Shown here in pieces: positions 5,026 to 18,420 of a stretch of DNA of 32,000 bases. Made by a program: the position numbers and the translations under genes. Positions within the stretch are counted from its first letter, which is position 1, and each line of letters begins with the position of its first letter. The DNA comes from Candidatus Saccharimonadota bacterium (GTDB lineage: Bacteria; Patescibacteriota; Saccharimonadia; Saccharimonadales; Saccharimonadaceae). A model generated the notes under the pieces. That model saw nothing but the letters and a program-made list of their open reading frames with translations. It did not search any database and was not told the origin of the DNA. The stretch spans positions 600,001 through 632,000 of the forward strand of contig JAIUPJ010000001.1 in NCBI GenBank assembly GCA_020160975.1, written 5' to 3'.

Positions 5026-8000
5026 CTACTTGTTGCTGAAGGCAAAGTTGAGGTTGCCGACATAGGCGTTGGCATTTTTGCTGGTGACGACATCAATCTT
5101 GAAGACGATACTATTTCCAGGGGTAAACCCGCAGGTCGAAGGATCGGCGGCACCGCTTGCCGATTTCGTTTGCCAGCTCGTCACCGTGCCAGTGGAGACG
5201 ACTGAGCTAGTGCCACATGGCGTTAAGCCGCTACCGGCATTTCGGTATATCTGGTAGCTCACCGTTGCCGAACCGCCGTTTGAACCGTTATCGGTACGGC
5301 CCATGAGCGAAGTTTGGCCAGAATTAAAGCTCTTGAAGGTGCCAGGAAGCTGGTATGTCACGTAAATACTATACGTCTGGGCAGATGCCTGAGGGCTTGT
5401 CCATTTGTAGAAGTTGTAGGTCTCACCACCAGCGCAGATAGTGGGCTGGCCAGAGCTGCCGTCGTTGATCCCAAGTGTCGAGCTACATAGGTCGCTTGTC
5501 ATCGTGCCAACCCCCGTGCCGTGCAGCACAGCATTGGTAAACTCTGGCGAGATAGTGATGATATTGTCTGGGCTTGAACCACAGGCACCCCAACCGTCAG
5601 CTTCGTAGCACTGCAATTTACCGAGTGTCGTATCGTAGTACATGCTACCGAGCAGTGCATCGTTGTTGGCCGCCACAGGCGCAGAAGCTCCACGGTCAAG
5701 CGTGAAGAGAGTAGTCGGGCCACCATTCGTACCACCGCCAATCTGGACGTTTGGCGTCGTATTACTGCTGAGGGTCAAGCTAAAGGTGTCGACATAGAAT
5801 GTCCGTGCAACTCCCGTCGCTTGAGTAAAGTAAACATACGGGTTGGTGGCAGTCGTGGCGTCAGTCGTGATATAGCAGGTGACTTTTGTGAAATTACTAA
5901 TACTCGTTGAGATGACTTGAGTATTGTAGTCGGCGCAGTTCACAAAGCTTGTGCCTCCGTCTCTTGAGTAGCGAACGGTAAAATTATTAAATGCATTGCT
6001 GCTCGCCACGTAGACAGAAATCCGGTACAGAGTGCTTGGTAGTGGATTGATGCTTAGTTTGTTGCGTACACCTTGTCCAGCGGTGGCAGTCGTGACGACT
6101 TGTGCACTATCACTCGCTTCATTTCCTGCAACATTCGTCCAGGTGCTTGTTGCTCCACCGACTCCGGGCCAGTTAGTACTAAAGTTTATATTGTCACCGA
6201 CATCACCATCAGTTGCGAGATTGTAGTCGGCAGCGATGGTGACGGAAATATTATCAACATAGAAGGTACGAGCTGTACCAGTCGTTTGTCTGATGATAAT
6301 GGCATTTGAAGCGGTAATACCACTCGCTGGTGCGGTAAAGGTACAGTTTACCTTTGTCCAGATGCTTGTTGCGCTGGTGGCGGCAGCCGTACATGGCACA
6401 CTGGCTGCAACACCGTCAATTGAGTAGTACACACTCATGTCAGTGAAAATGCCACTAGCGAGACGGGTTGTAAATGACACGTTGTAGTGCATGTTGGGTG
6501 TGAGCGCACCGGTGAGAACATTTTTGACGCCATCATTTGCCGTGCCAGTGGTAGCGATTGCGACTGAGGCTTGTCCTGTGGCGATATAATTACCGGCGGT
6601 ATTGTAGCGACTAATGGTTGCGCTCCCCATCGGCATCCACGTATTGGCTGGGAAAGTAATCGGTGTACTGCCAGCAACCTCGGCACCACTATCAGAGGTA
6701 TACTCAGTGACGTTGCTATTAACCTGGAAGAGTCCGGCTGCGCTAGAGGTTTGGACGCTCAGCAATGTACCATTAACTGAGTTTACTGTGCTGTCACGGA
6801 TTGTTAATCCATTGGTGGCGCTGGTTTTGCTGACGACTAACTCAGCACCACCAGCACTCTGGAGGGTATTGTCATATGCTGCCTGCAGCGTGGTGCTACT
6901 CGATGCTCCTGCTGCCGTCCAGTCGTCGCCGTTCCATATCATCGTGGCAGTTGTGTTTTTGCGCATAGCGATTTGATTACCCTGGCCACCGCCGTTGACT
7001 GAGAGTGTGAAATCTTTTGAGGTGTTTGAGGCGGTGACATACACGACGCGACCCGCAGTGAGGATTGTTGGGTCGGGAAGAGTTGCGGTTCGCCCGTCGA
7101 CGCTGAAGCCGACGAGTATCGCTGCCGTGTTGTTGACTGAGCTCTGAGCAATCGTACAGCTCGCAAGGACGGGAGCACTGCTGGTAAAACAATTGGGATC
7201 AGCGGTTGTGGTCGAGAATGTTGGTGTCGACATCACCACCAAGCCTTGCGCACCCGTACCGCTGCCGCTACCACCACTGAGAGTGAGGTTGCCGCCATTT
7301 GTATTTGCGAGTGACGCATTGCCGCCCTGAATGGCTAGTGTTTGATTTGGCGCACCCTGTACCGATGAGGTTGTCGAGCCCGAGAAGGTAAGGGCAGAGT
7401 TGGTAAGAATGGTTGTGCCAGCAATTTTATAATCAGTCGAGGTATTGATACTACCAGTGACATCAAGTGCACTGCCGACGGTCGAGGAATTTCCGATTGC
7501 TACTCGTGAATTGGTGGTGTCGACCGCCATTACGACATCGGTGCCGCTACTTGTTTTGACAGAAAGCGCAGACGTGCTGTTGACAGCTGGCTGGACAGTC
7601 AATGAGCCGGTTGAACCAACGCTCAGTACCGGTGATGCAACGCCGCTCGCCTTGACCTGCAAAATATCCACACTTTGCCCAGCAGCACCTTGGAATACTG
7701 CAGCCGAGTTTGTGCTTGCGGCGCTTTGCAAGGCAATGTTTGCTGTCTGTAGTGTCGTCGTGTTTTGGATAAAGTCACCAGCGGTTTTGCCGCCCAGCAT
7801 GCCCGCATTCATAGCGTATGGTGTGCTTGCGAGGCGTTTCATCGGCAGCATTTCACCGTCGCCCGCACAAGAAGCAAAAGGCGTACAAGTTGCGTTCGTA
7901 TTGCCAATGTTGATACTGAGCCAAAGCGTGTCTTGATTCCAGTCCACGCTGCTCAGGGGAGTAATTGAGCCCAACTGCACTGACATGTAGCCGTTTTTCA

Positions 8001-8304
8001 CCATGACACCCTTGCCTCCAGAGTTAAGCCAGTTCTCGGTCCACTTTAAGGTGCTTGCTGGCGAGCCAGTGCTGTTATTAGCCGAGAGGCCATCGCCATC
8101 CTGATAGATCTTAAACTGAATGTTGTAGTAGCCATCTGCGACTGTGGCGCCTGAAGCGGTGAGGAGTCGACCTTGGAAGTTGATTTGTTGGTTGATGCCT
8201 GGCGATGCAGACACAGAGGAGTTTGTTATGAGAGTTACAACGCAAAGCACGCCCAGCAATAGGGCGCCTAAGATACTCCGGCGTAGGGCACGAAAAACAG
8301 TCAT
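5026..8304 (-). CDS. Large secreted surface protein (1092 aa) with two CBM4/9-like carbohydrate-binding-type modules and a Cys-containing C-terminal domain.
   Basis: Track ORF 5026..8391. I trimmed the start to ATG at 8304 (M30), which gives a classic signal peptide MTVFRALRRSILGALLLGVLCVVTLITNSSVSASP. Two ~150-aa modules end in the CBM-like signature ARTFYVDNISVTI and ARTFYVDTFSLTL. The protein is Ser/Thr/Asn/Gly-rich and beta-type throughout. Confidence 0.8.
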   Translation of the reverse strand: MTVFRALRRSILGALLLGVLCVVTLITNSSVSASPGINQQINFQGRLLTASGATVADGYYNIQFKIYQDGDGLSANNSTGSPASTLKWTENWLNSGGKGVMVKNGYMSVQLGSITPLSSVDWNQDTLWLSINIGNTNATCTPFASCAGDGEMLPMKRLASTPYAMNAGMLGGKTAGDFIQNTTTLQTANIALQSAASTNSAAVFQGAAGQSVDILQVKASGVASPVLSVGSTGSLTVQPAVNSTSALSVKTSSGTDVVMAVDTTNSRVAIGNSSTVGSALDVTGSINTSTDYKIAGTTILTNSALTFSGSTTSSVQGAPNQTLAIQGGNASLANTNGGNLTLSGGSGSGTGAQGLVVMSTPTFSTTTADPNCFTSSAPVLASCTIAQSSVNNTAAILVGFSVDGRTATLPDPTILTAGRVVYVTASNTSKDFTLSVNGGGQGNQIAMRKNTTATMIWNGDDWTAAGASSSTTLQAAYDNTLQSAGGAELVVSKTSATNGLTIRDSTVNSVNGTLLSVQTSSAAGLFQVNSNVTEYTSDSGAEVAGSTPITFPANTWMPMGSATISRYNTAGNYIATGQASVAIATTGTANDGVKNVLTGALTPNMHYNVSFTTRLASGIFTDMSVYYSIDGVAASVPCTAAATSATSIWTKVNCTFTAPASGITASNAIIIRQTTGTARTFYVDNISVTIAADYNLATDGDVGDNINFSTNWPGVGGATSTWTNVAGNEASDSAQVVTTATAGQGVRNKLSINPLPSTLYRISVYVASSNAFNNFTVRYSRDGGTSFVNCADYNTQVISTSISNFTKVTCYITTDATTATNPYVYFTQATGVARTFYVDTFSLTLSSNTTPNVQIGGGTNGGPTTLFTLDRGASAPVAANNDALLGSMYYDTTLGKLQCYEADGWGACGSSPDNIITISPEFTNAVLHGTGVGTMTSDLCSSTLGINDGSSGQPTICAGGETYNFYKWTSPQASAQTYSIYVTYQLPGTFKSFNSGQTSLMGRTDNGSNGGSATVSYQIYRNAGSGLTPCGTSSVVSTGTVTSWQTKSASGAADPSTCGFTPGNSIVFKIDVVTSKNANAYVGNLNFAFSNK

Positions 8305-8524
8305 GTCTTTTTGTTGTAGTTTTTGATTTATTTTTCTACCACTAAAATATAGCCCGGGCGTAGCGAGAATGAACCCTTGCTGATGTGGCATAAAAAGCCG
8401 TCAAGGTACGATAGGTGGTTTTAGATTGTTATGTTGTGCTGTAAAGCCGTTTTTGTCTCACACATAGGTTTTACCTTATTAGCATAAACAATTTATCAAG
8501 AAAATGCAAGTTTTTTCATCTATT

Positions 8525-9478
8525 CTAGGCAGCAAGTAGACCGTTTTTGATAAGTGTTCGTCGCTCACGCCATTCACCGGCCCAAAAGCTGATTGTCATG
8601 GCGAATATCGCTGCGTAGAGTGGCCAAAGTGCAATGAGAATATGGGTGGACTGATTGCTTGCAGTGGCAGCGACCACCTCTGGATCTGGCTGTCCGTTGA
8701 CAATGCTCGCCACAGTCAGGAATGCCACACGCCCATCTGCATCAGTAGCTTGGAGTGATAACTGGTAGGTACCGGCCTTTGCATAGGTGTGGGCTGCACG
8801 AAAGCTGGCGTTGTCTGGACGCGACACAACCTTGTTGGTGCTATCTCCCCATTGGATGTTGACGGCATAGGGTGCTCGACCTCCCATAATGTCAATCGGT
8901 ATGGACATTTCTTTATTGGGAAATGCTCCACGGAATACTGCATCGGTGTTGATAATGAGCTGAGAGCCACCGAAATTAAGTGAAGAAAGCCCGTTGGCAC
9001 TCGCGATACCAGGGTTGTAGGTGACATTCACCGTATTGCTATCGGGCCCCGCCTGATTCAGAGCGTCATAAACACGGGCTACAATTGCGTTTGCTCCGAT
9101 AAGTAGATCGACTTCGATCTTGAATATACCATCCGTATTACACGGAGTTGAGCCAGCAAAAATATCGTTTTTGAATATCTCAACTAAGGTGTTGGTCGGG
9201 CAAGTGCCTCCGATGACAACCGGTGTTTGAGTGAATGATTGTCCGGGGCTCGGTGTAGTGATTCTTGCCCCTTGAGTCGGCGGCTTGCCGGGCATGACAC
9301 CAGTTAGGCCGATAGATCCGGCGGCAGGTCCTGGGCGGTCCCATGCACCGACAGTCACCGTCGTTAGGCAAAATCCAACCGCCAACAATAGCACCGTCAA
9401 AGAAATATAGGCAGTGTGTTCGTGAGAGCGTATTTTTCCTGTGTTTGTATAATGGAGCAATGGCTTGCGACGAAGCAT
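8525..9478 (-). CDS. Bitopic membrane protein (TM at both ends) with bacterial Ig-like and PKD-like extracytoplasmic domains.
   Basis: Track ORF 8525..9484 starts at GTG. ATG at 9478 is preceded by TATACT (9490-9485) plus 6 nt, the recurrent leaderless geometry. N-terminal TM is YISLTVLLLAVGFCLTTVTV. The Ig-like segment is ITTPSPGQSFTQTPVVIGGTCPTNTLVEIFKND...VNVTY. The PKD-like segment is WGDSTNKVVSRPDNASFRAAHTYAKAGTYQLSLQATDADGRVAF. C-terminal TM is ILIALWPLYAAIFAMTISFWAG. Confidence 0.7.
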   Translation of the reverse strand: MLRRKPLLHYTNTGKIRSHEHTAYISLTVLLLAVGFCLTTVTVGAWDRPGPAAGSIGLTGVMPGKPPTQGARITTPSPGQSFTQTPVVIGGTCPTNTLVEIFKNDIFAGSTPCNTDGIFKIEVDLLIGANAIVARVYDALNQAGPDSNTVNVTYNPGIASANGLSSLNFGGSQLIINTDAVFRGAFPNKEMSIPIDIMGGRAPYAVNIQWGDSTNKVVSRPDNASFRAAHTYAKAGTYQLSLQATDADGRVAFLTVASIVNGQPDPEVVAATASNQSTHILIALWPLYAAIFAMTISFWAGEWRERRTLIKNGLLAA

Positions 9479-9540
9479 AAGCACAGTATACCATCAGCTA
9501 TTAGTTTTTACTAGAGTCTAGGCATAGCCAACGCTGACTG

Positions 9541-10524
9541 TTATCGTCGTCTCGAGCCACGAGAACGACCGACCACGCGATCGGTGTATCGACGTACGAG
9601 AAGGCGTGCAATAATGGCAATTGCAATAATTGCAACAACTACCGCTAAAATAAGGCGCCATGGAATCACCCAAAAACTTAGCTCGCTGGTGATCTGCTGG
9701 TTTGACTCCCCATAGTTTAGTGTCATCTTTGCACGGTAAAGACCAAAGAGCATACGATCACCGATATTGCTCTTGTCGAGCGGTTGATCGAGCTTTCGAG
9801 TAGTTCCTGGCAAAATGCTACGTCGTTCGAGATTGACGTTAACATTGGCGACGAGATTTCCAAACATGTCGGTGACAGCTATCTGACCAGTTGGTTGTTC
9901 AAAGACATTGCCCTTGTTGACGATTTTTTGATTGAATGTTACCGGCTGCTCCTCGAATAGCCAGCCTGGAATATCGGTGGGGGTTTTGCTGACATAAAAG
10001 GTATTAAACGCCAGCTCTTCTTTTGCCTGACCATTCACACGTAGAAATATGAGTGCTCCGAGACTTGCGCTCAGAGAGACTCCTGAGGATTCCATATCTG
10101 GTGCTGTTGCCGTAAATCGAATGACTCCGTAGTAACCGCCTGGCGAGGCATCTTTTGGAATCTTGATGGTGACGGGGAGAGATTCAATTTGACGAGGCTT
10201 CAATGATAGCTTATTGAGCGGCTGTATCCAGGTTTTAATTGAATATGGGGTGGGCTCTGCCTGATCGAGTAGAATTTTTGGTACGCCGTCTTCGCCGTTA
10301 GCCGTGAAGTCATCGACTGTTCCGGTCACGACTAGGGGGCTGCTAGAGATATCGCGCAGATTAATAGTGGCAGATACGGTATCGCCTGGATTTGCCTTGA
10401 GGTTGAGAACGGGCGGTGCGATTTCGAGTGCTTGGCCGGGAGCATCTACCGCATGAGCTGGTGTTGCGGCAAAAACAAACAGGGTAGATAAGGCGACAAG
10501 AGTGGTGGCAAATAACTTCTTCAT
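9541..10524 (-). CDS. Signal-peptide protein with two beta-rich halves, a C-terminal TM anchor and an Arg-rich tail. Resembles DUF916/DUF3324 (CscA-type) components of Firmicutes WxL/Csc surface loci.
   Basis: Signal peptide MKKLFATTLVALSTLFVFAATPAHA. Motif pattern by eye: LKANPGDTVSATINLRDISSSPLVV, IPKDASPGGYYGVIRFTA, VNKGNVFEQPTGQIAVTD, RSILPGTTRKL, FGLYRAKMTLNYG, SFWVIPW. C-terminal TM is RLILAVVVAIIAIAIIARLLV, followed by RRYTDRVVGRSRGSRRR. Starts 4 nt after the upstream gene's stop. The family assignment is from memory of the family pattern, not from a search. Confidence 0.55.
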   Translation of the reverse strand: MKKLFATTLVALSTLFVFAATPAHAVDAPGQALEIAPPVLNLKANPGDTVSATINLRDISSSPLVVTGTVDDFTANGEDGVPKILLDQAEPTPYSIKTWIQPLNKLSLKPRQIESLPVTIKIPKDASPGGYYGVIRFTATAPDMESSGVSLSASLGALIFLRVNGQAKEELAFNTFYVSKTPTDIPGWLFEEQPVTFNQKIVNKGNVFEQPTGQIAVTDMFGNLVANVNVNLERRSILPGTTRKLDQPLDKSNIGDRMLFGLYRAKMTLNYGESNQQITSELSFWVIPWRLILAVVVAIIAIAIIARLLVRRYTDRVVGRSRGSRRR

Positions 10525-10528
10525 AGAA

Positions 10529-11653
10529 TTAATAAGTGGGGGTACAGATGTAGGTTAAGGTAGCGACATAGGTGCCGGCCATCTGATTACCGGCCACGTC
10601 GACGATGTATGATGAAGTGAAGATTTGAGCATTGGTTGGTCCTGCGACGTTGAAGTTGCTCGCAGCAACAATGTCCCCAGAATTATACTTAAAAGTGTCG
10701 ACAGTATTATAGCCTGTTTGTGCTTGACCTCTGAGGTCAGTACCGTTTGGAGGAAGGTCAACTTCGGCGCCAATCGCTACCGGAGAGGTAGCGGTGGTGT
10801 TGGCTTTGAGGTTCATGCCAAATTCACTTTTACCTCTGGTGCGTGTGGCGGCTGTTGTCATAGCTGGGATGGTGTTTGAGCCAGAGGTGAGGGTAGCACC
10901 ATTGACTGTGATGGCGTATCCAGAGCCTGCGTTGGTGCTTGCTGCCATCTGTGAAGTTGCAGTGGCAGTATCGGTTGGAGAGAAAAGCTGGTTGAAGCTA
11001 ATTGCTCCTGAAGTGGCAGTAGCACAATCAGGCACACCTGCAGTTTTGCTCACAGTGCCTCCCGTGCAAAAGATCAATGTCTCAGGCATGACACCAGTTA
11101 GGACGATCTGGGTGGCGGTACTAGCGGCTACCGTACCGGTGTCTACGGCGCCCGTAGCGCCATCGGTACCGGTATATGAGGTGATGCGAACGAAGAACGT
11201 GTAATTAGTAGTGGAAGGGTTGGTGACGCTGTTGAGTTGGATTTTGACAACCGCATTGGCACCCGTTGCTGCAGCAGCACGAGTTGCGATGAAGCTGTTT
11301 GCCGTCGAGCTTAATTTGCTAAATCCCGTTACGGTACTGCCTGTTTCGTTACCAAAAGTTGCAGCTGTTGCGCTCATGCCAGTTGGGGCTACACAAGCAA
11401 CCTGCACAGCGACGGTACAATATTCAAATTTGATCGAGCCAACTGTGCCTGCAGTTGGGAGCGTAAAGGTAAAGGCATGATTGACGACGCCACCCGGCTT
11501 TGAGCCACCATCAGTTGCGCCAGCGACAAGCTGCAAGCTACGATCAGTAATTTGTGCAGCGTAGGCAGTCGGTGCTTCATAAGCAAAGATGACAGCGCTG
11601 AACACCATCAAGCCACTAAGCAGATAATAGGAGAGTCTCCTCACACTTCTCAT
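10529..11653 (-). CDS. Secreted two-domain beta-rich surface subunit, paralog A (374 aa). C-terminal tail is AGTYVATLTYICTPTY.
   Basis: Track ORF 10529..11659 starts at TTG. ATG at 11653 gives MRSVRRLSYYLLSGLMVFSAVIFAYEAPTAYA|AQ, a signal peptide. Clearly homologous along its length to 11783..12934 (e.g. DGGSKPGG(V/I)VNH.FTFTLP, GSIKFEYCT, CVAPTGM, ISFNQLFSPT, SQMAASTNA.SGY.IT(V/I)NGATL.SGSNTI.AMTTA). Confidence 0.8.
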   Translation of the reverse strand: MRSVRRLSYYLLSGLMVFSAVIFAYEAPTAYAAQITDRSLQLVAGATDGGSKPGGVVNHAFTFTLPTAGTVGSIKFEYCTVAVQVACVAPTGMSATAATFGNETGSTVTGFSKLSSTANSFIATRAAAATGANAVVKIQLNSVTNPSTTNYTFFVRITSYTGTDGATGAVDTGTVAASTATQIVLTGVMPETLIFCTGGTVSKTAGVPDCATATSGAISFNQLFSPTDTATATSQMAASTNAGSGYAITVNGATLTSGSNTIPAMTTAATRTRGKSEFGMNLKANTTATSPVAIGAEVDLPPNGTDLRGQAQTGYNTVDTFKYNSGDIVAASNFNVAGPTNAQIFTSSYIVDVAGNQMAGTYVATLTYICTPTY

Positions 11654-11660
11654 AATCAAA

Positions 11661-11690
11661 AGTGTACCATAAGCGAAAACCAGCGGTCAA
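11661..11690 (-). promoter_or_regulatory. Candidate sigma70-type promoter for paralog A: TTGACC-18 nt-TACACT, with the -10 ending 7 nt before the ATG (leaderless geometry).
   Basis: Minus-strand read is TTGACCgctggttttcgcttatggTACACTtttgattATG. Sequence pattern only. Confidence 0.35.
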
Positions 11691-11734
11691 ATAGTTGGGT
11701 CAATCGAGCATAATTATATGTGGATAACTAGCAA

Positions 11735-11760
11735 AGCCGTGTAATCACCAAAACACGGCT
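11735..11760 (-). terminator. Hairpin between the two paralog genes; possible intrinsic terminator.
   Basis: AGCCGTGT-aatcaccaaa-ACACGGCT, an 8-bp perfect stem, 23 nt downstream of the stop at 11783. On the minus strand it is followed by ttgctagtt, only moderately T-rich. Confidence 0.4.
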
Positions 11761-11782
11761 CATGCATGCTATCCGTGGTGGA

Positions 11783-12934
11783 CTAGTAGGTTGGGGTACA
11801 AATATAGGTAAGGGTAGTAGAGTAGTTACCAGCTGGCAAGCTACCAGGAACATTTGCGATATAGGTGGCGGTGTAAATTTGGGCGTCGGTTCCACCAAGT
11901 ACTGTGTTGCCGCTGTTTGCGACAGGGTCACCGGAATTGAATTTGAAGCTATCTACCGTGTCATACCCTGCAAGCGGCTGACCACGTAGGTTTGCGGCAT
12001 TGGATGTCGGCGCCAATTCGGTGCCGGTTGCAACGGTGTCGATGGTATTGGCTCTGAGATTGAGCCCGAACTGGCTATTACCGTGGAGACTGGGCCCAGC
12101 AGTAGTCATTGCAGCGATCGTGTTTGATCCTGAACTAAGGGTGGCGCCATTGATGGTGATGGAGTAGCCGGAGCTAGCGTTGGTACTTGCTGCCATCTGC
12201 GAGCTTGCGGTGGCTGTGGCAGTCGGAGAGAATAGCTGGTTAAAGCTAATGAGTCCAGAGGTGGCAGTACCGCAGTCTGGGACACTAGCAGTCAAGCCAA
12301 TCGCTGCACCAGTACAGAAGACCAGTGATTCGGGCATTGTACCGTCGAGGATGATTTGCTCGGCGGTCGAAGCAGCGACTGTTCCTCTATGGACCGGCAC
12401 ACCTGTCGTATCGGTGCTCGCATAAGCGGTAACACGTACGAAGAATGTTTTGTTGCTTGCAGGTACGACGCCATAGTTTGGGTTTGTAACGCCATTGACT
12501 GTGTAAGTGACAGTGGTATTTGCACCCAGTGTGTAAGCGCTGCCTCGTGAGAGGTAGTAGCTATTGAAGTTTGGGCCAGTCGCTGGGTGCATGGTCATAC
12601 CGGTGATGCCTGTCTCGCCACCTAGCGTGACTGTGCCGGCATTCATGCCAGTTGGAGCGACACAGGTGAAGGCGCCAACATCTGCAGCGGTCGTACAGTA
12701 TTCGAATTTAATCGAGCCAACAGAGCCGCCAGATGGTAGTGTAAAGGTAAATCTATGGTTAACAATACCGCCTGGTTTTGATCCACCGTCAACACCACCT
12801 GCAACAAGTGTCAGGCTACGATCGAGAATCTGCGCCGCATTTGTAGGGGTTGGTAAAACGACTTGTAAGACAAGTATAGTGGCGAGCGAGAGCAGGCCAA
12901 GAGCTTTTAATAGTGGTGGTGATATTTTTTTCAT
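11783..12934 (-). CDS. Secreted two-domain beta-rich surface subunit, paralog B (383 aa). C-terminal tail is AGNYSTTLTYICTPTY.
   Basis: Track ORF 11783..12985. I trimmed the start to ATG at 12934, giving the signal peptide MKKISPPLLKALGLLSLATILVLQVVLPTPTNA|AQ. Homologous to 10529..11653. Confidence 0.8.
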   Translation of the reverse strand: MKKISPPLLKALGLLSLATILVLQVVLPTPTNAAQILDRSLTLVAGGVDGGSKPGGIVNHRFTFTLPSGGSVGSIKFEYCTTAADVGAFTCVAPTGMNAGTVTLGGETGITGMTMHPATGPNFNSYYLSRGSAYTLGANTTVTYTVNGVTNPNYGVVPASNKTFFVRVTAYASTDTTGVPVHRGTVAASTAEQIILDGTMPESLVFCTGAAIGLTASVPDCGTATSGLISFNQLFSPTATATASSQMAASTNASSGYSITINGATLSSGSNTIAAMTTAGPSLHGNSQFGLNLRANTIDTVATGTELAPTSNAANLRGQPLAGYDTVDSFKFNSGDPVANSGNTVLGGTDAQIYTATYIANVPGSLPAGNYSTTLTYICTPTY

Positions 12935-12975
12935 GTTGTGGTGGTTTTTGTTTATGTTTAGTGATATCTGCCAGC

Positions 12976-13005
12976 ACTTTAGCATAAGTGTTTTTGAATT
13001 GTCAA
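12976..13005 (-). promoter_or_regulatory. Candidate promoter for paralog B: TTGACA-18 nt-(TGc)TAAAGT, an extended -10.
   Basis: Minus-strand read is TTGACAattcaaaaacacttaTGcTAAAGT, in the 95-nt gap between 13030 and 12934. Pattern only. Confidence 0.3.
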
Positions 13006-13029
13006 CAATAAGTTGTGAAAACTACGCCA

Positions 13030-13755
13030 TTAGTATGTGCCGGTGACCACGAGCGTCTGGTTGGTGGTATACTGCCCACCGTGAGTGAGAGGTGATACAT
13101 TAACGACATAACTAATCGTATAGTTGGTCACGCCACTATCTTTGTCTGATTGTGCAATGATATCGCCACTTTGGTAAAAATACTTGTTTGGTGTGTTGTA
13201 ATTTGCCGCTAACGCACCAAATCCAAACTGCCCATTATCAGGGTTTGTGCCAAGTGATATGGGCAGAGTATTTGCAACTAAATTAATACCAAACTGCTCA
13301 ACACCGGCTTGTGCGGGACCTAGCACCGACATCGGGGTGATGGTATGTGCGCCATTTTGCGGAGGAGTGCCAACAATTTGTACGACATATCCGTACGTTG
13401 TGTAGTTAAGAACGGTAAAGCTCGCAGTGGTAGTCGAGGTAGCAGTAGGGGTGAAGGCGCCAAAGTTAGTCCCGCTCGAGTTAACGACAAACGAAAGAGC
13501 AGGATCACCCGTTGTTTTGCTGCCGGCATTGATCTGGTAGTTTGTCGATGTCGAGTTGCCTACGCCTAAATCACCGGTCGCCTCGGTGATGCCATAATTT
13601 GCCGACCCTGAATTAATTAATCCGCTGGTACCAACACTGGTTTCGTCGAACTTGAAATTTGTCGACTGAAGTGTCTCGGCGAGTACAGGTGTAATAGACG
13701 CTGTTGCAACTATCAGCGCCACAAATATGCCTCGTACTCCAATTTGCCAGGCCAT
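13030..13755 (-). CDS. Secreted single-domain beta-rich surface subunit, paralog C (241 aa). C-terminal tail is GGQYTTNQTLVVTGTY.
   Basis: Track ORF 13030..13791. I trimmed the start to ATG at 13755, giving MAWQIGVRGIFVALIVATASITPVLA|ETLQ. Shares C-domain motifs with paralogs A/B: QFGINLVANT vs EFGMNLKANT / QFGLNLRANT; YFYQSGDIIAQS vs FKYNSGDIVAAS / FKFNSGDPVANS; and a terminal G-x-Y...T-x-Y. Confidence 0.75.
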   Translation of the reverse strand: MAWQIGVRGIFVALIVATASITPVLAETLQSTNFKFDETSVGTSGLINSGSANYGITEATGDLGVGNSTSTNYQINAGSKTTGDPALSFVVNSSGTNFGAFTPTATSTTTASFTVLNYTTYGYVVQIVGTPPQNGAHTITPMSVLGPAQAGVEQFGINLVANTLPISLGTNPDNGQFGFGALAANYNTPNKYFYQSGDIIAQSDKDSGVTNYTISYVVNVSPLTHGGQYTTNQTLVVTGTY

Positions 13756-13761
13756 AACTCT

Positions 13762-13814
13762 ATTGTAGGAGTAGGCATGAGCTTTTTGCAAGTTTCGCTT
13801 GCGGGCGGTATACT
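13762..13814. promoter_or_regulatory. Divergent promoter pair sharing one palindromic -35 hexamer, TTGCAA (13786-13791).
   Basis: Plus strand: TTGCAA-17 nt-TATACT (13809-13814), upstream of ATG 13844. Minus strand: TTGCAA-18 nt-TACAAT (13767-13762), then 6 nt, then ATG 13755. Confidence 0.4.
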
Positions 13815-13843: not shown

Positions 13844-14863
13844 ATGAGTAATGATCCAAATAATGAATCTCAGACACCAGCACCAGAAGTGTTGACTGTT
13901 GGCGGCGAATCGTCGACACCCGACACTTCGAATGGGCAACAAGCAGAGGTCGTCAAGACTGCTCCGGCCACGCCCAAGCGCCGTATTGCCTACAAGCCTA
14001 GTCACAAAGGTACGTTTATCGGGTTGGTGGTGGTAATTCTTATCCTAGCCATCAACGCCGGTATCATCGCTTTTGTCATGCGCAACCAAGTCACAGCGGA
14101 GGAAGAGAGGATCAAAAACGGGGTGACTATTAGTTCTGCCACGCTCGACAAATTAGGGGTGAGCCGCAATCCAGCTGGCAATGCCGAGACGGAGTTGATT
14201 GTAGGACCGAAGTCGACATTTAAGGACAATGTGCAAATGGCGGGATCATTGCAAGTTGGCGGCAGCCTGGTGCTCAATAGTAAATTTACTGCGAGTGATG
14301 CTGCCCTGGCCAAGCTCCAGGCAGGTGATACACAGGTGCAGTCGCTCAATGTCAATGGCGATGGCACCATAAGCACCCTTAATCTGCGTAAAGATCTGAA
14401 AGTGGCCGGGGTGACGCAACTCCAGGGGCCGTTGACAGTCAACCAACTAACGACCGTTAATAATAATATGAATGTCGCCGGTAATTTATCAATTGGCGGA
14501 AGTTTGAGTGTGCGCAACTTCCAGGTAGCAACGCTGACCGTGGCTGGACACTTGATCAGCACGGGCGCGCAACCAGGTGCAAGTGCCGGGGGCGGTACTG
14601 GTAGCAACGGCACGGCGGCGATTAGCGGCAATGATACCTCGGGAACAGTGTCGGTCAACATGGGAGTCGGTGCGGGCAATGGTTTGCTCGCGACCGTGAA
14701 TTTCAGCACGAAATATGCCGAAACGCCGCATGTCGTCGTGACACCAATCGGTCGAAGTGTACCGGGAATGTATATCAATCGCACGTCTGCCGGCTTCACA
14801 ATTAGTGTCGATGGAGCACTGGCGCCAGGTGGGTATGCATTTGACTATGTGGTGGTGCAGTAG
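13844..14863 (+). CDS. Type II membrane-anchored protein with a beta-helix-like repeat region and a C-terminal beta-sandwich reminiscent of an H-type lectin domain.
   Basis: Disordered N-terminus, then TM FIGLVVVILILAINAGIIAFVM. Repetitive segment: LQVGGSLVLNS / VQSLNVNGDGTISTLNL / LKVAGVTQLQGPLTVNQLT / MNVAGNLSIGGSLSVRNFQ. C-terminus: GTVSVNMG...ATVNFSTKYAETPHVVVTPIGRSVPGMYINRTSAGFTISVDG...FDYVVVQ. The lectin call is weak. Confidence 0.7.
   Translation: MSNDPNNESQTPAPEVLTVGGESSTPDTSNGQQAEVVKTAPATPKRRIAYKPSHKGTFIGLVVVILILAINAGIIAFVMRNQVTAEEERIKNGVTISSATLDKLGVSRNPAGNAETELIVGPKSTFKDNVQMAGSLQVGGSLVLNSKFTASDAALAKLQAGDTQVQSLNVNGDGTISTLNLRKDLKVAGVTQLQGPLTVNQLTTVNNNMNVAGNLSIGGSLSVRNFQVATLTVAGHLISTGAQPGASAGGGTGSNGTAAISGNDTSGTVSVNMGVGAGNGLLATVNFSTKYAETPHVVVTPIGRSVPGMYINRTSAGFTISVDGALAPGGYAFDYVVVQ

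Positions 14864-16063: not shown

Positions 16064-16064
<1 letters not shown>
15804..16064 (-). CDS. atpC: F1 ATP synthase epsilon subunit, short form (86 aa; N-terminal beta-sandwich only).
   Basis: Last gene of the operon, with a TAATG overlap onto atpD. Pattern ...VGEFDILPGHADFFSMLIPCTVTI...SGMLTVKSDEVMLFV matches the epsilon N-domain (GxxGILPxHxP-like). No C-terminal helical hairpin. Confidence 0.75.

Positions 16065-18420
<2,356 letters not shown>

What the first reader, a model, noticed from the sequence alone, without database searches (positions are those of the whole stretch)
9541..13755. Candidate undescribed surface-fibre/complex module: three paralogous subunits with a conserved C-terminal G-x-Y...T-h-T-h...TY tail, plus a DUF916/DUF3324-like anchored partner
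The three secreted proteins share a C-terminal domain. Shared motifs are E/QFG(M/L/I)NL.ANT; F/Y-(K/F)-(Y/F)-(N/Q)-SGD-(I/P)-(V/I)-A; and the extreme C-termini AGTYVATLTYICTPTY, AGNYSTTLTYICTPTY and GGQYTTNQTLVVTGTY, all ending in Tyr. The next gene has the architecture and motif pattern I associate with CscA (DUF916 + DUF3324 + C-terminal TM + basic tail). In Firmicutes, CscA is encoded next to WxL-domain proteins (CscB/CscC) that form non-covalent cell-surface complexes. Here the WxL Trp is absent (TYI in its place). The tail also resembles the 'G-x-Y-x-D-T-h-T-V-T-h-x-Y' terminus of SCPU/Csu-type (archaic chaperone-usher) pilins. However, no usher or PapD-type chaperone is present. This could be a divergent, unannotated relative of either system, possibly a fibre assembled by strand exchange in a monoderm. 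The family links are from memory of motif patterns and need testing.
Basis: partly seen in the sequence, partly recalled or inferred. Interest (0 to 1): 0.8.

Follow-up and report, generated by a model that had tools for sequence, protein, structure and literature searches.

The report
Pam pilus operon of a Saccharibacterium
These genes encode a thin surface fibre (the Pam pilus) that ultrasmall parasitic CPR bacteria build by slotting a strand of one subunit into the next. It was described by cryo-EM in a 2026 preprint, so the locus is real but no longer new, although its helper protein turns out to be related to a Gram-positive surface-protein family the preprint does not mention.

Summary
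Three minus-strand genes encode secreted paralogs that share a C-terminal domain and an aromatic-ended tail that is invariant in 120 homologs. They are followed by a membrane-anchored protein with two beta-sandwich domains. The module is not undescribed. NCBIfam release 20 names the 253-aa protein PamT (273 bits, cutoff 240), all three C-domains "Pam pilin C", and the next gene downstream PamR (342 bits, cutoff 300). A 2026 bioRxiv preprint solved homologous PamA/PamB filaments from Ca. Mycosynbacter amalyticus: usher-less donor-strand exchange with membrane-anchored chaperones. Synteny (ATP synthase, PamT, 2-4 pilins, chaperone, PamR, giant protein) holds in about 80 Saccharibacteria species. 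The linker motif is in pilins and PamR and absent from PamT. The 327-aa family matches real WxLIP (DUF916/DUF3324) proteins at hhalign 96.6% (E 7e-10), against 0.4% for PapD-type chaperones, and solved WxLIP is its top Foldseek hit. Pilin-to-WxL similarity is limited to the tail and not established. Verdict: already known system, with one new evolutionary lead.

The parts
13030..13791 (-). PamT, single-domain tip pilin. Probable true start is the ATG at 13755 (241 aa). Signal peptide, then an acceptor C-domain only, with no linker/donor motif and no cysteine.
   Evidence: NF058579 CPR_pilus_PamT equivalog, 273.1 bits (cutoff 240), and NF058581, 147.7 bits. 32% identity to the pilin C-domain. 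Donor motif in 0 of 70 homologs.
11783..12985 (-). Two-domain Pam pilin, first copy (400-aa ORF; probable start at Met18, nt 12934). It sits where PamA sits in M. amalyticus, judged from accession order.
   Evidence: NF058581 Pam pilin C, 143.8 bits (cutoff 55). 57% identity to the 376-aa paralog.
10529..11659 (-). Two-domain Pam pilin, second copy (376 aa). Signal peptide, beta-sandwich N-domain (~40-180), linker (~182-200), acceptor C-domain (~205-376). It sits where PamE sits in M. amalyticus.
   Evidence: NF058581, 135.2 bits. AF2 model pLDDT 79: N-domain above 90, linker 185-193 below 50. 2570 homologs.
12308..12355 (-). Linker/donor-strand motif of the 400-aa pilin (QIILDGTMPESLVFCT).
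   Evidence: Motif h-x-h-[TDSN]-G-x-M-P is in 143 of 152 pilin homologs and 0 of 4678 unrelated ORFs. G189, M191, P192, E193, F197, C198 and G200 are invariant.
11060..11107 (-). Linker/donor-strand motif of the 376-aa pilin (QIVLTGVMPETLIFCT).
   Evidence: Disordered in the monomer model, as expected of a strand that needs a partner subunit.
10532..10579 (-). Conserved C-terminal tail AGTYVATLTYICTPTY, the last strand of the acceptor domain. The equivalent tails lie at 11786-11833 and 13033-13080.
   Evidence: Invariant pattern in 120 homologs. Present in PamT as well. It is the only segment that aligns to the WxL C-terminal motif.
9541..10524 (-). Membrane-anchored pilin chaperone (PamC/PamD type; it sits where PamD sits). 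Two Ig-like domains, a C-terminal TM helix and a basic tail. Homolog of WxLIP/CscA (DUF916-DUF3324).
   Evidence: AF2 pLDDT 81. Foldseek: WxLIP 9i25_C E 2e-10, CU chaperones E 1e-8 to 3e-7. hhalign to WxLIP 96.6% against 0.4% to PapD-type chaperones.
8525..9484 (-). PamR, RbmA-like protein with a C-terminal TM helix; proposed terminator and membrane anchor.
   Evidence: NF058578 CPR_pilus_PamR equivalog, 342.5 bits (cutoff 300). Adjacent to the chaperone in all loci with enough flank.
9275..9313 (-). Donor-like motif near the PamR N-terminus (SIGLTGVMPGKPP), matching the pilin linker.
   Evidence: G-x-M-P is present in 37 of 74 PamR homologs.
5026..8391 (-). 1121-aa secreted or anchored giant protein with a CBM_4_9 domain. 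This is the 'tail fibre-like protein' of the conserved pam neighbourhood.
   Evidence: PF02018, 27.8 bits. A homolog follows PamR in nearly every locus. Preprint section 9.
13844..14863 (+). Divergently transcribed 339-aa membrane protein, conserved next to PamT. Role unknown.
   Evidence: A homolog sits at the same position and orientation in essentially all 80 loci. No curated family hit.

Best explanation
This is a pam operon: the chaperone-assisted, usher-less donor-strand-exchange pilus of CPR bacteria, here in an uncultured Saccharimonadia species.

Proposed mechanism:
1. All components are exported by Sec.
2. The 327-aa protein stays anchored in the cytoplasmic membrane by its C-terminal helix. 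It caps the open groove of each newly exported pilin C-domain with one of its own strands.
3. PamT has only the acceptor domain, so it starts the fibre at the distal tip.
4. Each two-domain pilin then inserts its inter-domain linker strand (..I-x-L-T-G-x-M-P-E-S-L-h-F-C..) into the groove of the previous subunit, displacing the chaperone.
5. PamR carries a linker-like strand near its N-terminus and a C-terminal TM helix. It plugs the last pilin and ties the fibre to the membrane.
6. The conserved C-terminal G-x-Y...T-L-T-Y-I-C-T-x-T-[FY] tail is inferred to be the final strand of the acceptor domain, bordering the groove. It is not the donated strand.

The fibre probably makes first contact with the host bacterium.

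Shown elsewhere by experiment: filament structure and donor-strand exchange for PamA and PamB.
Shown here: orthology, motif distribution, synteny and fold.
Inferred: the chaperone cycle, the order of assembly and the role in host contact.
For: - Curated models: PamT and PamR equivalogs score above their cutoffs, and the Pam pilin C domain is found in all three paralogs.
- The preprint reports cryo-EM of PamA/PamB filaments with the linker as donor strand, PamT as tip, TM-anchored PamC/D chaperones, PamR as anchor, and ATP synthase and a tail-fibre-like gene as neighbours.
- The same gene order is found in 80 Saccharibacteria species. 67 of 80 loci carry PamT, pilin, chaperone and PamR together; the rest are cut by contig ends. 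63 of 70 loci have two pilin genes.
- The window has atpD at 16064-17515 next to the module.
- Donor motif distribution: pilins 143/152, PamR about 50%, PamT 0/70, chaperone 0/80, other ORFs 0/4678.
- The pilin model shows a confident N-domain, a disordered linker and a C-domain.
- The chaperone model shows two beta-sandwiches plus a TM helix and hits CU chaperones and WxLIP.
- No usher or PapD-type sequence is present.
Against: - Nothing was measured for this organism. Filament formation is extrapolated from M. amalyticus.
- I could not obtain the M. amalyticus sequences, so assigning the two pilins to PamA/PamE and the chaperone to PamD rests only on gene order inferred from accession numbers.
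- The 327-aa protein hits no Pam-specific NCBIfam model.
- This operon has one chaperone and two pilins, whereas M. amalyticus has two chaperones and three pilins.
- Only half of the PamR homologs keep the strict G-x-M-P motif.
- The chaperone role, the order of assembly and the PamR anchoring rest on AlphaFold complexes in the preprint, not on experiment.
Confidence: 0.9

Rival explanations
1. It is a WxL/Csc-type non-covalent cell-surface complex, as in Firmicutes, rather than a fibre. The TM-anchored DUF916/DUF3324-like protein would simply hold one small and two large WxL-like proteins on the cell surface, with no polymerisation.
For: - The 327-aa family is a profile-level homolog of WxLIP, and solved WxLIP is its best structural match.
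- The cluster layout is the same: one domain-only protein, large proteins with that domain at the C-terminus, and a TM-anchored two-Ig partner.
- The pilin tail aligns with the C-terminal WxL motif, with Y in place of W.
- WxLIP is predicted to complete the WxL sandwich with one of its strands (PMC10599100).
Against: - Homologous pilins form micrometre-long filaments in M. amalyticus.
- The pilins and PamR share a dedicated donor motif that PamT lacks, which is what a polar polymer would show and a 1:1 complex would not.
- PF13731 hits 0 of 120 homologs.
- Full-domain hhalign between the pilin C-domain and WxL is not significant (Prob 4-21%).
Confidence: 0.06
2. It is a true, divergent member of the classical or archaic (Csu/SCPU) chaperone-usher pili, whose usher lies elsewhere in the genome or has been lost.
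For: - The fold of the 327-aa protein matches CfaA, CsuC, YadV, DraB and EcpB at Foldseek E 1e-8 to 3e-7.
- The pilin model weakly matches SafDAA and CfaE.
- The C-terminal G-x-Y...aromatic tail recalls the last strand of CU pilins (general knowledge).
Against: - No usher is present in the window or in 80 syntenic loci.
- The chaperone profile against 11 PapD-type chaperones gives Prob 0.4%, P 0.17.
- PapD_N hits 1 of 50 homologs at E 0.03.
- SCPU, DUF4402 and fimbrial Pfam models hit 0 of 120 homologs.
- The donor strand is an internal linker, not an N-terminal extension, and the chaperone is membrane-anchored.
- The preprint describes these bacteria as lacking an outer membrane.
Confidence: 0.03
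3. It is a sortase-dependent, covalently linked Gram-positive-type pilus or MSCRAMM-like adhesin set.
For: The full-length pilin model's best PDB matches are tandem-Ig adhesins such as FnBPA, Cna, ClfB and antigen I/II.
Against: - Those matches are weak (TM about 0.2) and generic for tandem beta-sandwiches.
- The proteins end in ...TPTY with no LPXTG sorting signal or C-terminal TM segment.
- No sortase is present in the conserved cluster.
- The solved homologs are held together by strand exchange.
Confidence: 0.01

Closest known systems
Pam pilus of Candidatus Mycosynbacter amalyticus (PamA/B/E pilins, PamT, PamC/D, PamR); bioRxiv 10.64898/2026.03.03.709456; NCBIfam NF058578, NF058579, NF058581
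   Same: PamT and PamR score above the equivalog cutoffs and the Pam pilin C domain is in all three paralogs. The pilins have two domains joined by a conserved linker. The chaperone is TM-anchored with two Ig-like domains. There is no usher. ATP synthase and a giant tail-fibre-like gene are neighbours. The lineage is Saccharimonadia.
   Different: This operon has two pilin genes and one chaperone, which is the commonest layout (63 of 70 loci). M. amalyticus has three pilins and two chaperones. The first pilin lacks the roughly 100-residue insertion that makes PamA 55 kDa. The mature pilins here carry five invariant cysteines, whereas the preprint reports two or three disulfide pairs. No experimental data exist for this organism.
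WxL / Csc cell-surface clusters of Firmicutes (CscA = WxLIP with DUF916 + DUF3324 + TM; CscB/CscC = small and large WxL proteins; PDB 9i1y, 9i25)
   Same: The partner protein is homologous at profile level across both domains (hhalign 96.6%, E 7e-10, 217 columns) and has the same TM helix and basic tail. The cluster layout matches: a domain-only small protein plus large proteins with that domain at the C-terminus. The partner is predicted to complete the subunit's sandwich with a strand. The subunit tails follow a similar pattern, G-x-Y-x-x-T-L-T-[WY]-x-[LI], and some real WxL proteins also have Y in place of W.
   Different: PF13731 does not detect the Pam C-domain (0 of 120), and both Trp residues are Tyr. 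PF06030 stays below threshold (17 bits against 27.3) and PF11797 is not detected. WxL proteins are regarded as peptidoglycan-bound complexes, not fibres. Csc clusters often add an LPXTG protein, whereas Pam has the TM-anchored PamR.
Chaperone-usher pili of Gram-negative bacteria (Pap/Fim; archaic Csu; CFA/I)
   Same: Incomplete Ig-like subunits are completed by a strand from the next subunit. A two-domain Ig-like chaperone caps subunits before assembly. The tip subunit has no donor strand. A terminator subunit ends growth. The tail of the last strand is conserved and aromatic.
   Different: There is no usher and no outer membrane. The chaperone is membrane-anchored and has no detectable sequence relation to PapD (Prob 0.4%). 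The donor strand is an internal linker between two domains, not an N-terminal extension. The fibre is an extended, uncoiled helix according to the preprint.

Membership tests
Pam pilus system (CPR) | Pilin C-terminal acceptor domain (NF058581 CPR_Pam_pilin_C) | tested here: met
   147.7, 143.8 and 135.2 bits against a cutoff of 55 for the three paralogs.
Pam pilus system (CPR) | Single-domain tip pilin PamT without a donor linker | tested here: met
   NF058579 equivalog, 273.1 bits against a cutoff of 240. The alignment shows a gap where the pilins have the linker. Donor motif in 0 of 70 PamT homologs.
Pam pilus system (CPR) | Two-domain pilins with a conserved inter-domain linker that serves as donor strand | tested here: inconclusive
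   The architecture and an invariant linker are seen. Actual insertion of the linker into the neighbouring subunit could not be modelled here (no multimer tool, and PDB 25PZ/25QA are not in the PDB copy).
Pam pilus system (CPR) | Membrane-anchored PapD/FimC-like chaperone (PamC/PamD) | tested here: met
   The model has two beta-sandwiches and a C-terminal TM helix. Foldseek hits CU chaperones at E 1e-8 to 3e-7. The gene lies between the pilin and PamR in all loci. No curated Pam chaperone model hit was returned.
Pam pilus system (CPR) | RbmA-like, TM-anchored PamR | tested here: met
   NF058578 equivalog, 342.5 bits against a cutoff of 300. A linker-like motif lies near its N-terminus.
Pam pilus system (CPR) | Conserved neighbourhood (ATP synthase, tail-fibre-like gene) and CPR lineage | tested here: met
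   All 80 related loci are Saccharibacteria and share the gene order. In the window atpD lies at 16064-17515 and the 1121-aa gene at 5026-8391.
Pam pilus system (CPR) | Proteins actually polymerise into extracellular filaments | not testable with these tools
   Shown only for M. amalyticus PamA/PamB by cryo-EM.
WxL / Csc cluster | WxL domain (PF13731) with dual Trp-x-Leu motifs in the subunits | tested here: not met
   No PF13731 hit in the three window proteins or in 120 diverse homologs. Both motif positions read G-Y-x-I and T-Y-I-C. hhalign aligns the tail only (Prob 4-21%).
WxL / Csc cluster | WxLIP partner: DUF916 (PF06030) + DUF3324 (PF11797) + C-terminal TM | tested here: inconclusive
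   PF06030 scores 17 bits, below the 27.3 cutoff, but 45 of 50 homologs hit it (best E 2.9e-5). PF11797 is not hit. Profile-profile comparison to 11 real WxLIPs gives Prob 96.6%, E 6.7e-10, spanning both domains. Top Foldseek hit is 9i25_C. The TM helix and basic tail are present. This makes it a homolog, but not a member by the curated thresholds.
Chaperone-usher pili (classical and archaic/SCPU) | Outer-membrane usher | tested here: not met
   No usher family hit in the seven cluster proteins. None of the conserved neighbours in 80 loci is usher-like.
Chaperone-usher pili (classical and archaic/SCPU) | PapD-family periplasmic chaperone (PF00345/PF02753) | tested here: not met
   PapD_N hits 1 of 50 homologs at E 0.03. 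hhalign against 11 CU chaperones gives Prob 0.4%. There is fold-level resemblance only.
Chaperone-usher pili (classical and archaic/SCPU) | Fimbrial, SCPU or DUF4402 subunit domain | tested here: not met
   No such Pfam hit in 120 homologs or in the window proteins.

The most novel reading that the evidence does not exclude
The CPR Pam pilus and the Firmicute WxL/Csc surface clusters may be two branches of one ancient system for bacteria without an outer membrane. In this system a membrane-anchored WxLIP-type chaperone caps incomplete beta-sandwich subunits by strand complementation. If so, PamC/D would descend from WxLIP/CscA rather than from PapD, and the Pam pilin C-domain would be a Tyr-for-Trp variant of the WxL domain. 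WxL clusters might then also assemble by strand exchange into short polar fibres: the small WxL protein as tip, large WxL proteins as body, and the small LPXTG protein as anchor, mirroring PamT, the pilins and PamR. The chaperone half of this is well supported here. The subunit half and the claim of WxL polymerisation are not.
Probability: 0.4. Interest if true: 0.7.

Novelty: already known. Interest (0 to 1): 0.35.

Why it matters
The locus shows that the first-stage reader can recover a real and unusual machine from raw sequence: an usher-less strand-exchange pilus in bacteria without an outer membrane. That machine was published in 2026, so it adds little on its own. It confirms that the two-pilin, one-chaperone layout is the common form across Saccharimonadia.

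The useful by-product is the sequence-level link between the Pam chaperone and the WxLIP/CscA proteins of Firmicutes, which the preprint does not mention. The preprint leaves the evolutionary origin of Pam open, and this link offers a concrete answer. It also yields a testable prediction for the poorly understood WxL clusters of enterococci, listeriae and lactobacilli: their WxLIP may act as an assembly chaperone, and their WxL proteins may be joined by strand exchange.

Tried and rejected
- **PDB sequence searches.** Searches with the pilin, the chaperone and the chaperone profile found nothing relevant. The Pam models 25PZ/25QA are not in the copy.
- **Foldseek of the full-length pilin model.** It gave only generic tandem-Ig adhesins at TM about 0.2. 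This says nothing about the C-domain on its own.
- **Supplement of the WxLIP paper.** Its sequences are held only as images. I recovered real WxL clusters by tblastn with a motif-based query instead.
- **Third homolog search.** I used a small WxL protein as query and got only 8 hits. The WxL profile had to be built from 18-23 plasmid-borne sequences.
- **Single-sequence hhalign.** Comparing the chaperone profile to FimC or to one WxLIP was non-significant for both. Only the matched 11-sequence profiles discriminate.
- **PamR against the chaperone profile.** No similarity, so PamR is not a degenerate chaperone paralog at sequence level.
- **Promoter and terminator scan.** Terminator-like sites were at background level, and the modest excess of promoter-like sites gave no usable signal.
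- **Cluster look-up.** It returned no M. amalyticus accession, so it could not tie the chaperone to WP_260763284/277.
- **Literature on WxL and donor strands.** The searches found no paper describing the 9i25 complex.
- **SCPU/Csu resemblance.** Rejected as a family assignment after 0 of 120 Pfam hits.

Full report
**What is there.** Six co-directional minus-strand genes occupy 5026-13791.

| Coordinates | Length | Product |
|---|---|---|
| 13030-13791 | 253-aa ORF (241 aa from the ATG at 13755) | secreted protein |
| 11783-12985 | 400 aa | secreted protein |
| 10529-11659 | 376 aa | secreted protein |
| 9541-10524 | 327 aa | signal peptide plus C-terminal TM helix |
| 8525-9484 | 319 aa | signal peptide plus C-terminal TM helix |
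| 5026-8391 | 1121 aa | giant protein |

A 339-aa membrane protein is transcribed divergently at 13844-14863. The ATP synthase genes follow from about 15800.

**Check of the observation.**
- The two large proteins are 57% identical end to end (E 1e-131).
- The small protein matches only their C-terminal ~170 residues, at 32% identity (E 2e-16).
- The tail is strongly conserved. Among 120 homologs the last 16 residues read [AS]-G-T-Y-x-x-T-L-T-Y-[IV]-C-T-x-T-[FY], with eight invariant positions.
- PamT-type homologs have their own version, G-G-x-Y-x-x-x-Q-T-h-h-h-T-G-T-Y.

**Identity.** Pfam finds nothing in the three paralogs and only a sub-threshold DUF916 hit in the 327-aa protein. NCBIfam release 20 settles it:
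- The small protein is the equivalog CPR_pilus_PamT (273 bits, cutoff 240).
- All three paralogs carry CPR_Pam_pilin_C (135-148 bits, cutoff 55).
- The 319-aa protein is the equivalog CPR_pilus_PamR (342 bits, cutoff 300).

These names come from a 2026 bioRxiv preprint (10.64898/2026.03.03.709456). That work determined 2.8 and 3.6 Å cryo-EM structures of the thin filaments of Ca. Mycosynbacter amalyticus. Its main results are:
- Two-domain pilins PamA and PamB polymerise by inserting the strand that links their N- and C-domains into the open Ig-like C-domain of the neighbouring subunit.
- PamT is a single-domain tip pilin without the linker.
- PamC and PamD are PapD/FimC-like chaperones with a C-terminal TM helix.
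- PamR is an RbmA-like, TM-anchored terminator.
- There is no usher.
- ATP synthase and a tail-fibre-like gene are conserved neighbours.

Everything in the window fits this description.

**Conservation.** The chaperone-like protein has 1220 homologs and the pilin has 2570. A scan of one genome per GTDB species returned 80 loci, all from Saccharibacteria. In these loci the order is atpA, atpD, divergent 339-aa gene, PamT, pilins, chaperone, PamR, giant protein, and it is essentially invariant. 67 of 80 loci hold PamT, pilin, chaperone and PamR; the rest are cut by contig ends. 63 of 70 loci have exactly two pilin genes.

**Mechanism, from the sequence.** The motif h-x-h-[TDSN]-G-x-M-P sits in the pilin inter-domain linker (QIVLTGVMPETLIFC and QIILDGTMPESLVFC). 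Its distribution is as follows.

| Protein class | Homologs with the motif |
|---|---|
| Pilins | 143 of 152 |
| PamR (here SIGLTGVMPGKPP) | about half |
| PamT | 0 of 70 |
| Chaperones | 0 of 80 |
| Other ORFs in the same loci | 0 of 4678 |

The linker residues are invariant across pilins. The linker is the low-confidence stretch between two well-predicted domains in the monomer model.

The C-terminal tail has a different distribution. It is present in PamT and the pilins and absent from PamR. This yields a polar logic:
- PamT is acceptor only, so it sits at the tip.
- The pilins are donor plus acceptor, so they form the shaft.
- PamR is donor plus membrane anchor, so it sits at the base.

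The strand assignment is inferred. I could not run multimer models, and the deposited filament models are not in the PDB copy.

**The 327-aa partner.**
- *Model.* The AlphaFold model (pLDDT 81) has two beta-sandwich domains and a TM helix at 289-322.
- *Structure search.* Its top Foldseek hit in the PDB is 9i25_C, WxLIP from Enterococcus faecium bound to a long WxL protein (E 2e-10). RbmA and chaperone-usher chaperones CfaA, CsuC, YadV, DraB and EcpB follow. TM-scores are low throughout because the domain orientation differs.
- *Pfam.* PF06030 (DUF916, the WxLIP peptidoglycan-binding domain) is the family most often hit: 45 of 50 homologs, all below threshold, best E 2.9e-5. PapD_N is hit once. 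Other Ig-like families hit the same P-G-G-Y-Y strand nearly as often, so this alone is weak evidence.
- *Profile comparison.* I retrieved 11 real WxL clusters from Firmicute plasmids and 11 real chaperone-usher chaperones, then compared profiles of equal depth.

| Comparison | hhalign result |
|---|---|
| Pam chaperone family vs WxLIP | Prob 96.6%, E 6.7e-10, 217 collinear columns over both domains |
| Pam chaperone family vs PapD-type chaperones | Prob 0.4%, P 0.17 |

The preprint never mentions WxL or DUF916, and no paper in the searchable library links WxL with CPR bacteria. WxLIP is predicted to complete the WxL sandwich with one of its own strands (PMC10599100), which is chaperone-like donor-strand complementation.

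**Are the pilin C-domains WxL domains?** There is some evidence for a relationship:
- The motifs line up by eye: G-Y-x-I against G-W-x-L, and G-x-Y-x-x-T-L-T-Y-I against x-x-Y-x-x-T-L-T-W-x-L. Some genuine WxL proteins also have Tyr in place of Trp.
- A WxL HMM built here scores 19 of 141 diverse Pam C-domains at E below 0.01. Reversed, shuffled and N-domain controls give 0 or 1.
- The hhalign score of 23 exceeds all 200 column-permuted nulls (mean 10.8, sd 1.8).

The evidence against is at least as strong:
- The confident hhalign alignment is only the last ~20-40 columns (Prob 4-21%).
- Pfam's WxL, SCPU and DUF4402 models hit none of 120 homologs.
- The only structural search I could run was uninformative.

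I rate this as suggestive, not established.

**Comparison with known systems.** The module works like a chaperone-usher pilus without the usher, and it is a member of the Pam system. It is not a member of the chaperone-usher families: there is no usher, no PapD sequence signal and no fimbrial or SCPU domain. Its chaperone is homologous to WxLIP, but its subunits do not meet the definition of the WxL domain.

**Verdict.** The residual novelty is the link between the Pam chaperone and WxLIP, and the possibility that Pam pili and WxL/Csc clusters share a common origin.

Noticed in passing
window 10529-12985 (both pilins); homologs in L001-L080: Mature Pam pilins carry five invariant cysteines, an odd number: two in the N-domain, one at the end of the linker (F-C-T-G), one at the start of the C-domain (P-D-C) and one in the C-terminal tail (Y-I-C). 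129 of 145 homologs have exactly five. PamT in this window has none, and 29 of 70 PamT homologs have none. At least one conserved cysteine must therefore be unpaired or form an intersubunit bond.
   Followed up: partly
window 13844-14863 (+): A divergently transcribed 339-aa protein has an N-terminal TM segment and a repetitive beta-rich region (LNVNGDG..., VAGNLSIGGSLSV...). A homolog sits next to PamT at the same position and orientation in essentially all 80 Saccharibacteria loci. It hits no curated family, and the preprint sections I read do not name it as a pam component.
   Followed up: partly
window 16064-17515 (-): The ATP synthase beta subunit ends in a Pro/Ala/Glu-rich extension (...[24 protein letters not shown]) that is not part of the usual beta subunit. 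The whole atp operon abuts the pam module, as the preprint notes for other CPR genomes.
   Followed up: no
L081-L091 (Firmicute plasmid WxL clusters): Small WxL proteins and the small LPXTG-anchored proteins in the same clusters each show a short strand-like segment just after the signal peptide (roughly [ST]-x-x-h-x-h-x-[PG]; for example SNATIKFLPG, SKASIKFKAG and GVITFTPN in small WxL proteins, and SDVTVRLLPN and TTRISFVSKN in LPXTG proteins). This resembles an N-terminal donor strand and parallels the motif shared by the PamR and pilin linkers. It was seen by eye in about 15 sequences and not quantified.
   Followed up: partly
L087, L088, L089 (Bacillus cereus plasmid, B. anthracis pXO1, Listeria plasmid): On these plasmids the WxL/WxLIP cluster lies next to conjugation-type genes (a CpaF/VirB11 ATPase and an AAA ATPase). 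This suggests a role for these surface proteins in plasmid transfer or mating contact.
   Followed up: no
window 5026-8391 (-): The 1121-aa protein after PamR has an N-terminal TM or signal segment, long Ser/Thr/Ala/Gly-rich beta regions and one CBM_4_9 carbohydrate-binding domain (27.8 bits). Homologs vary from about 900 to more than 2900 aa between species while keeping their position after PamR. That pattern would fit a fast-evolving host-recognition protein.
   Followed up: partly
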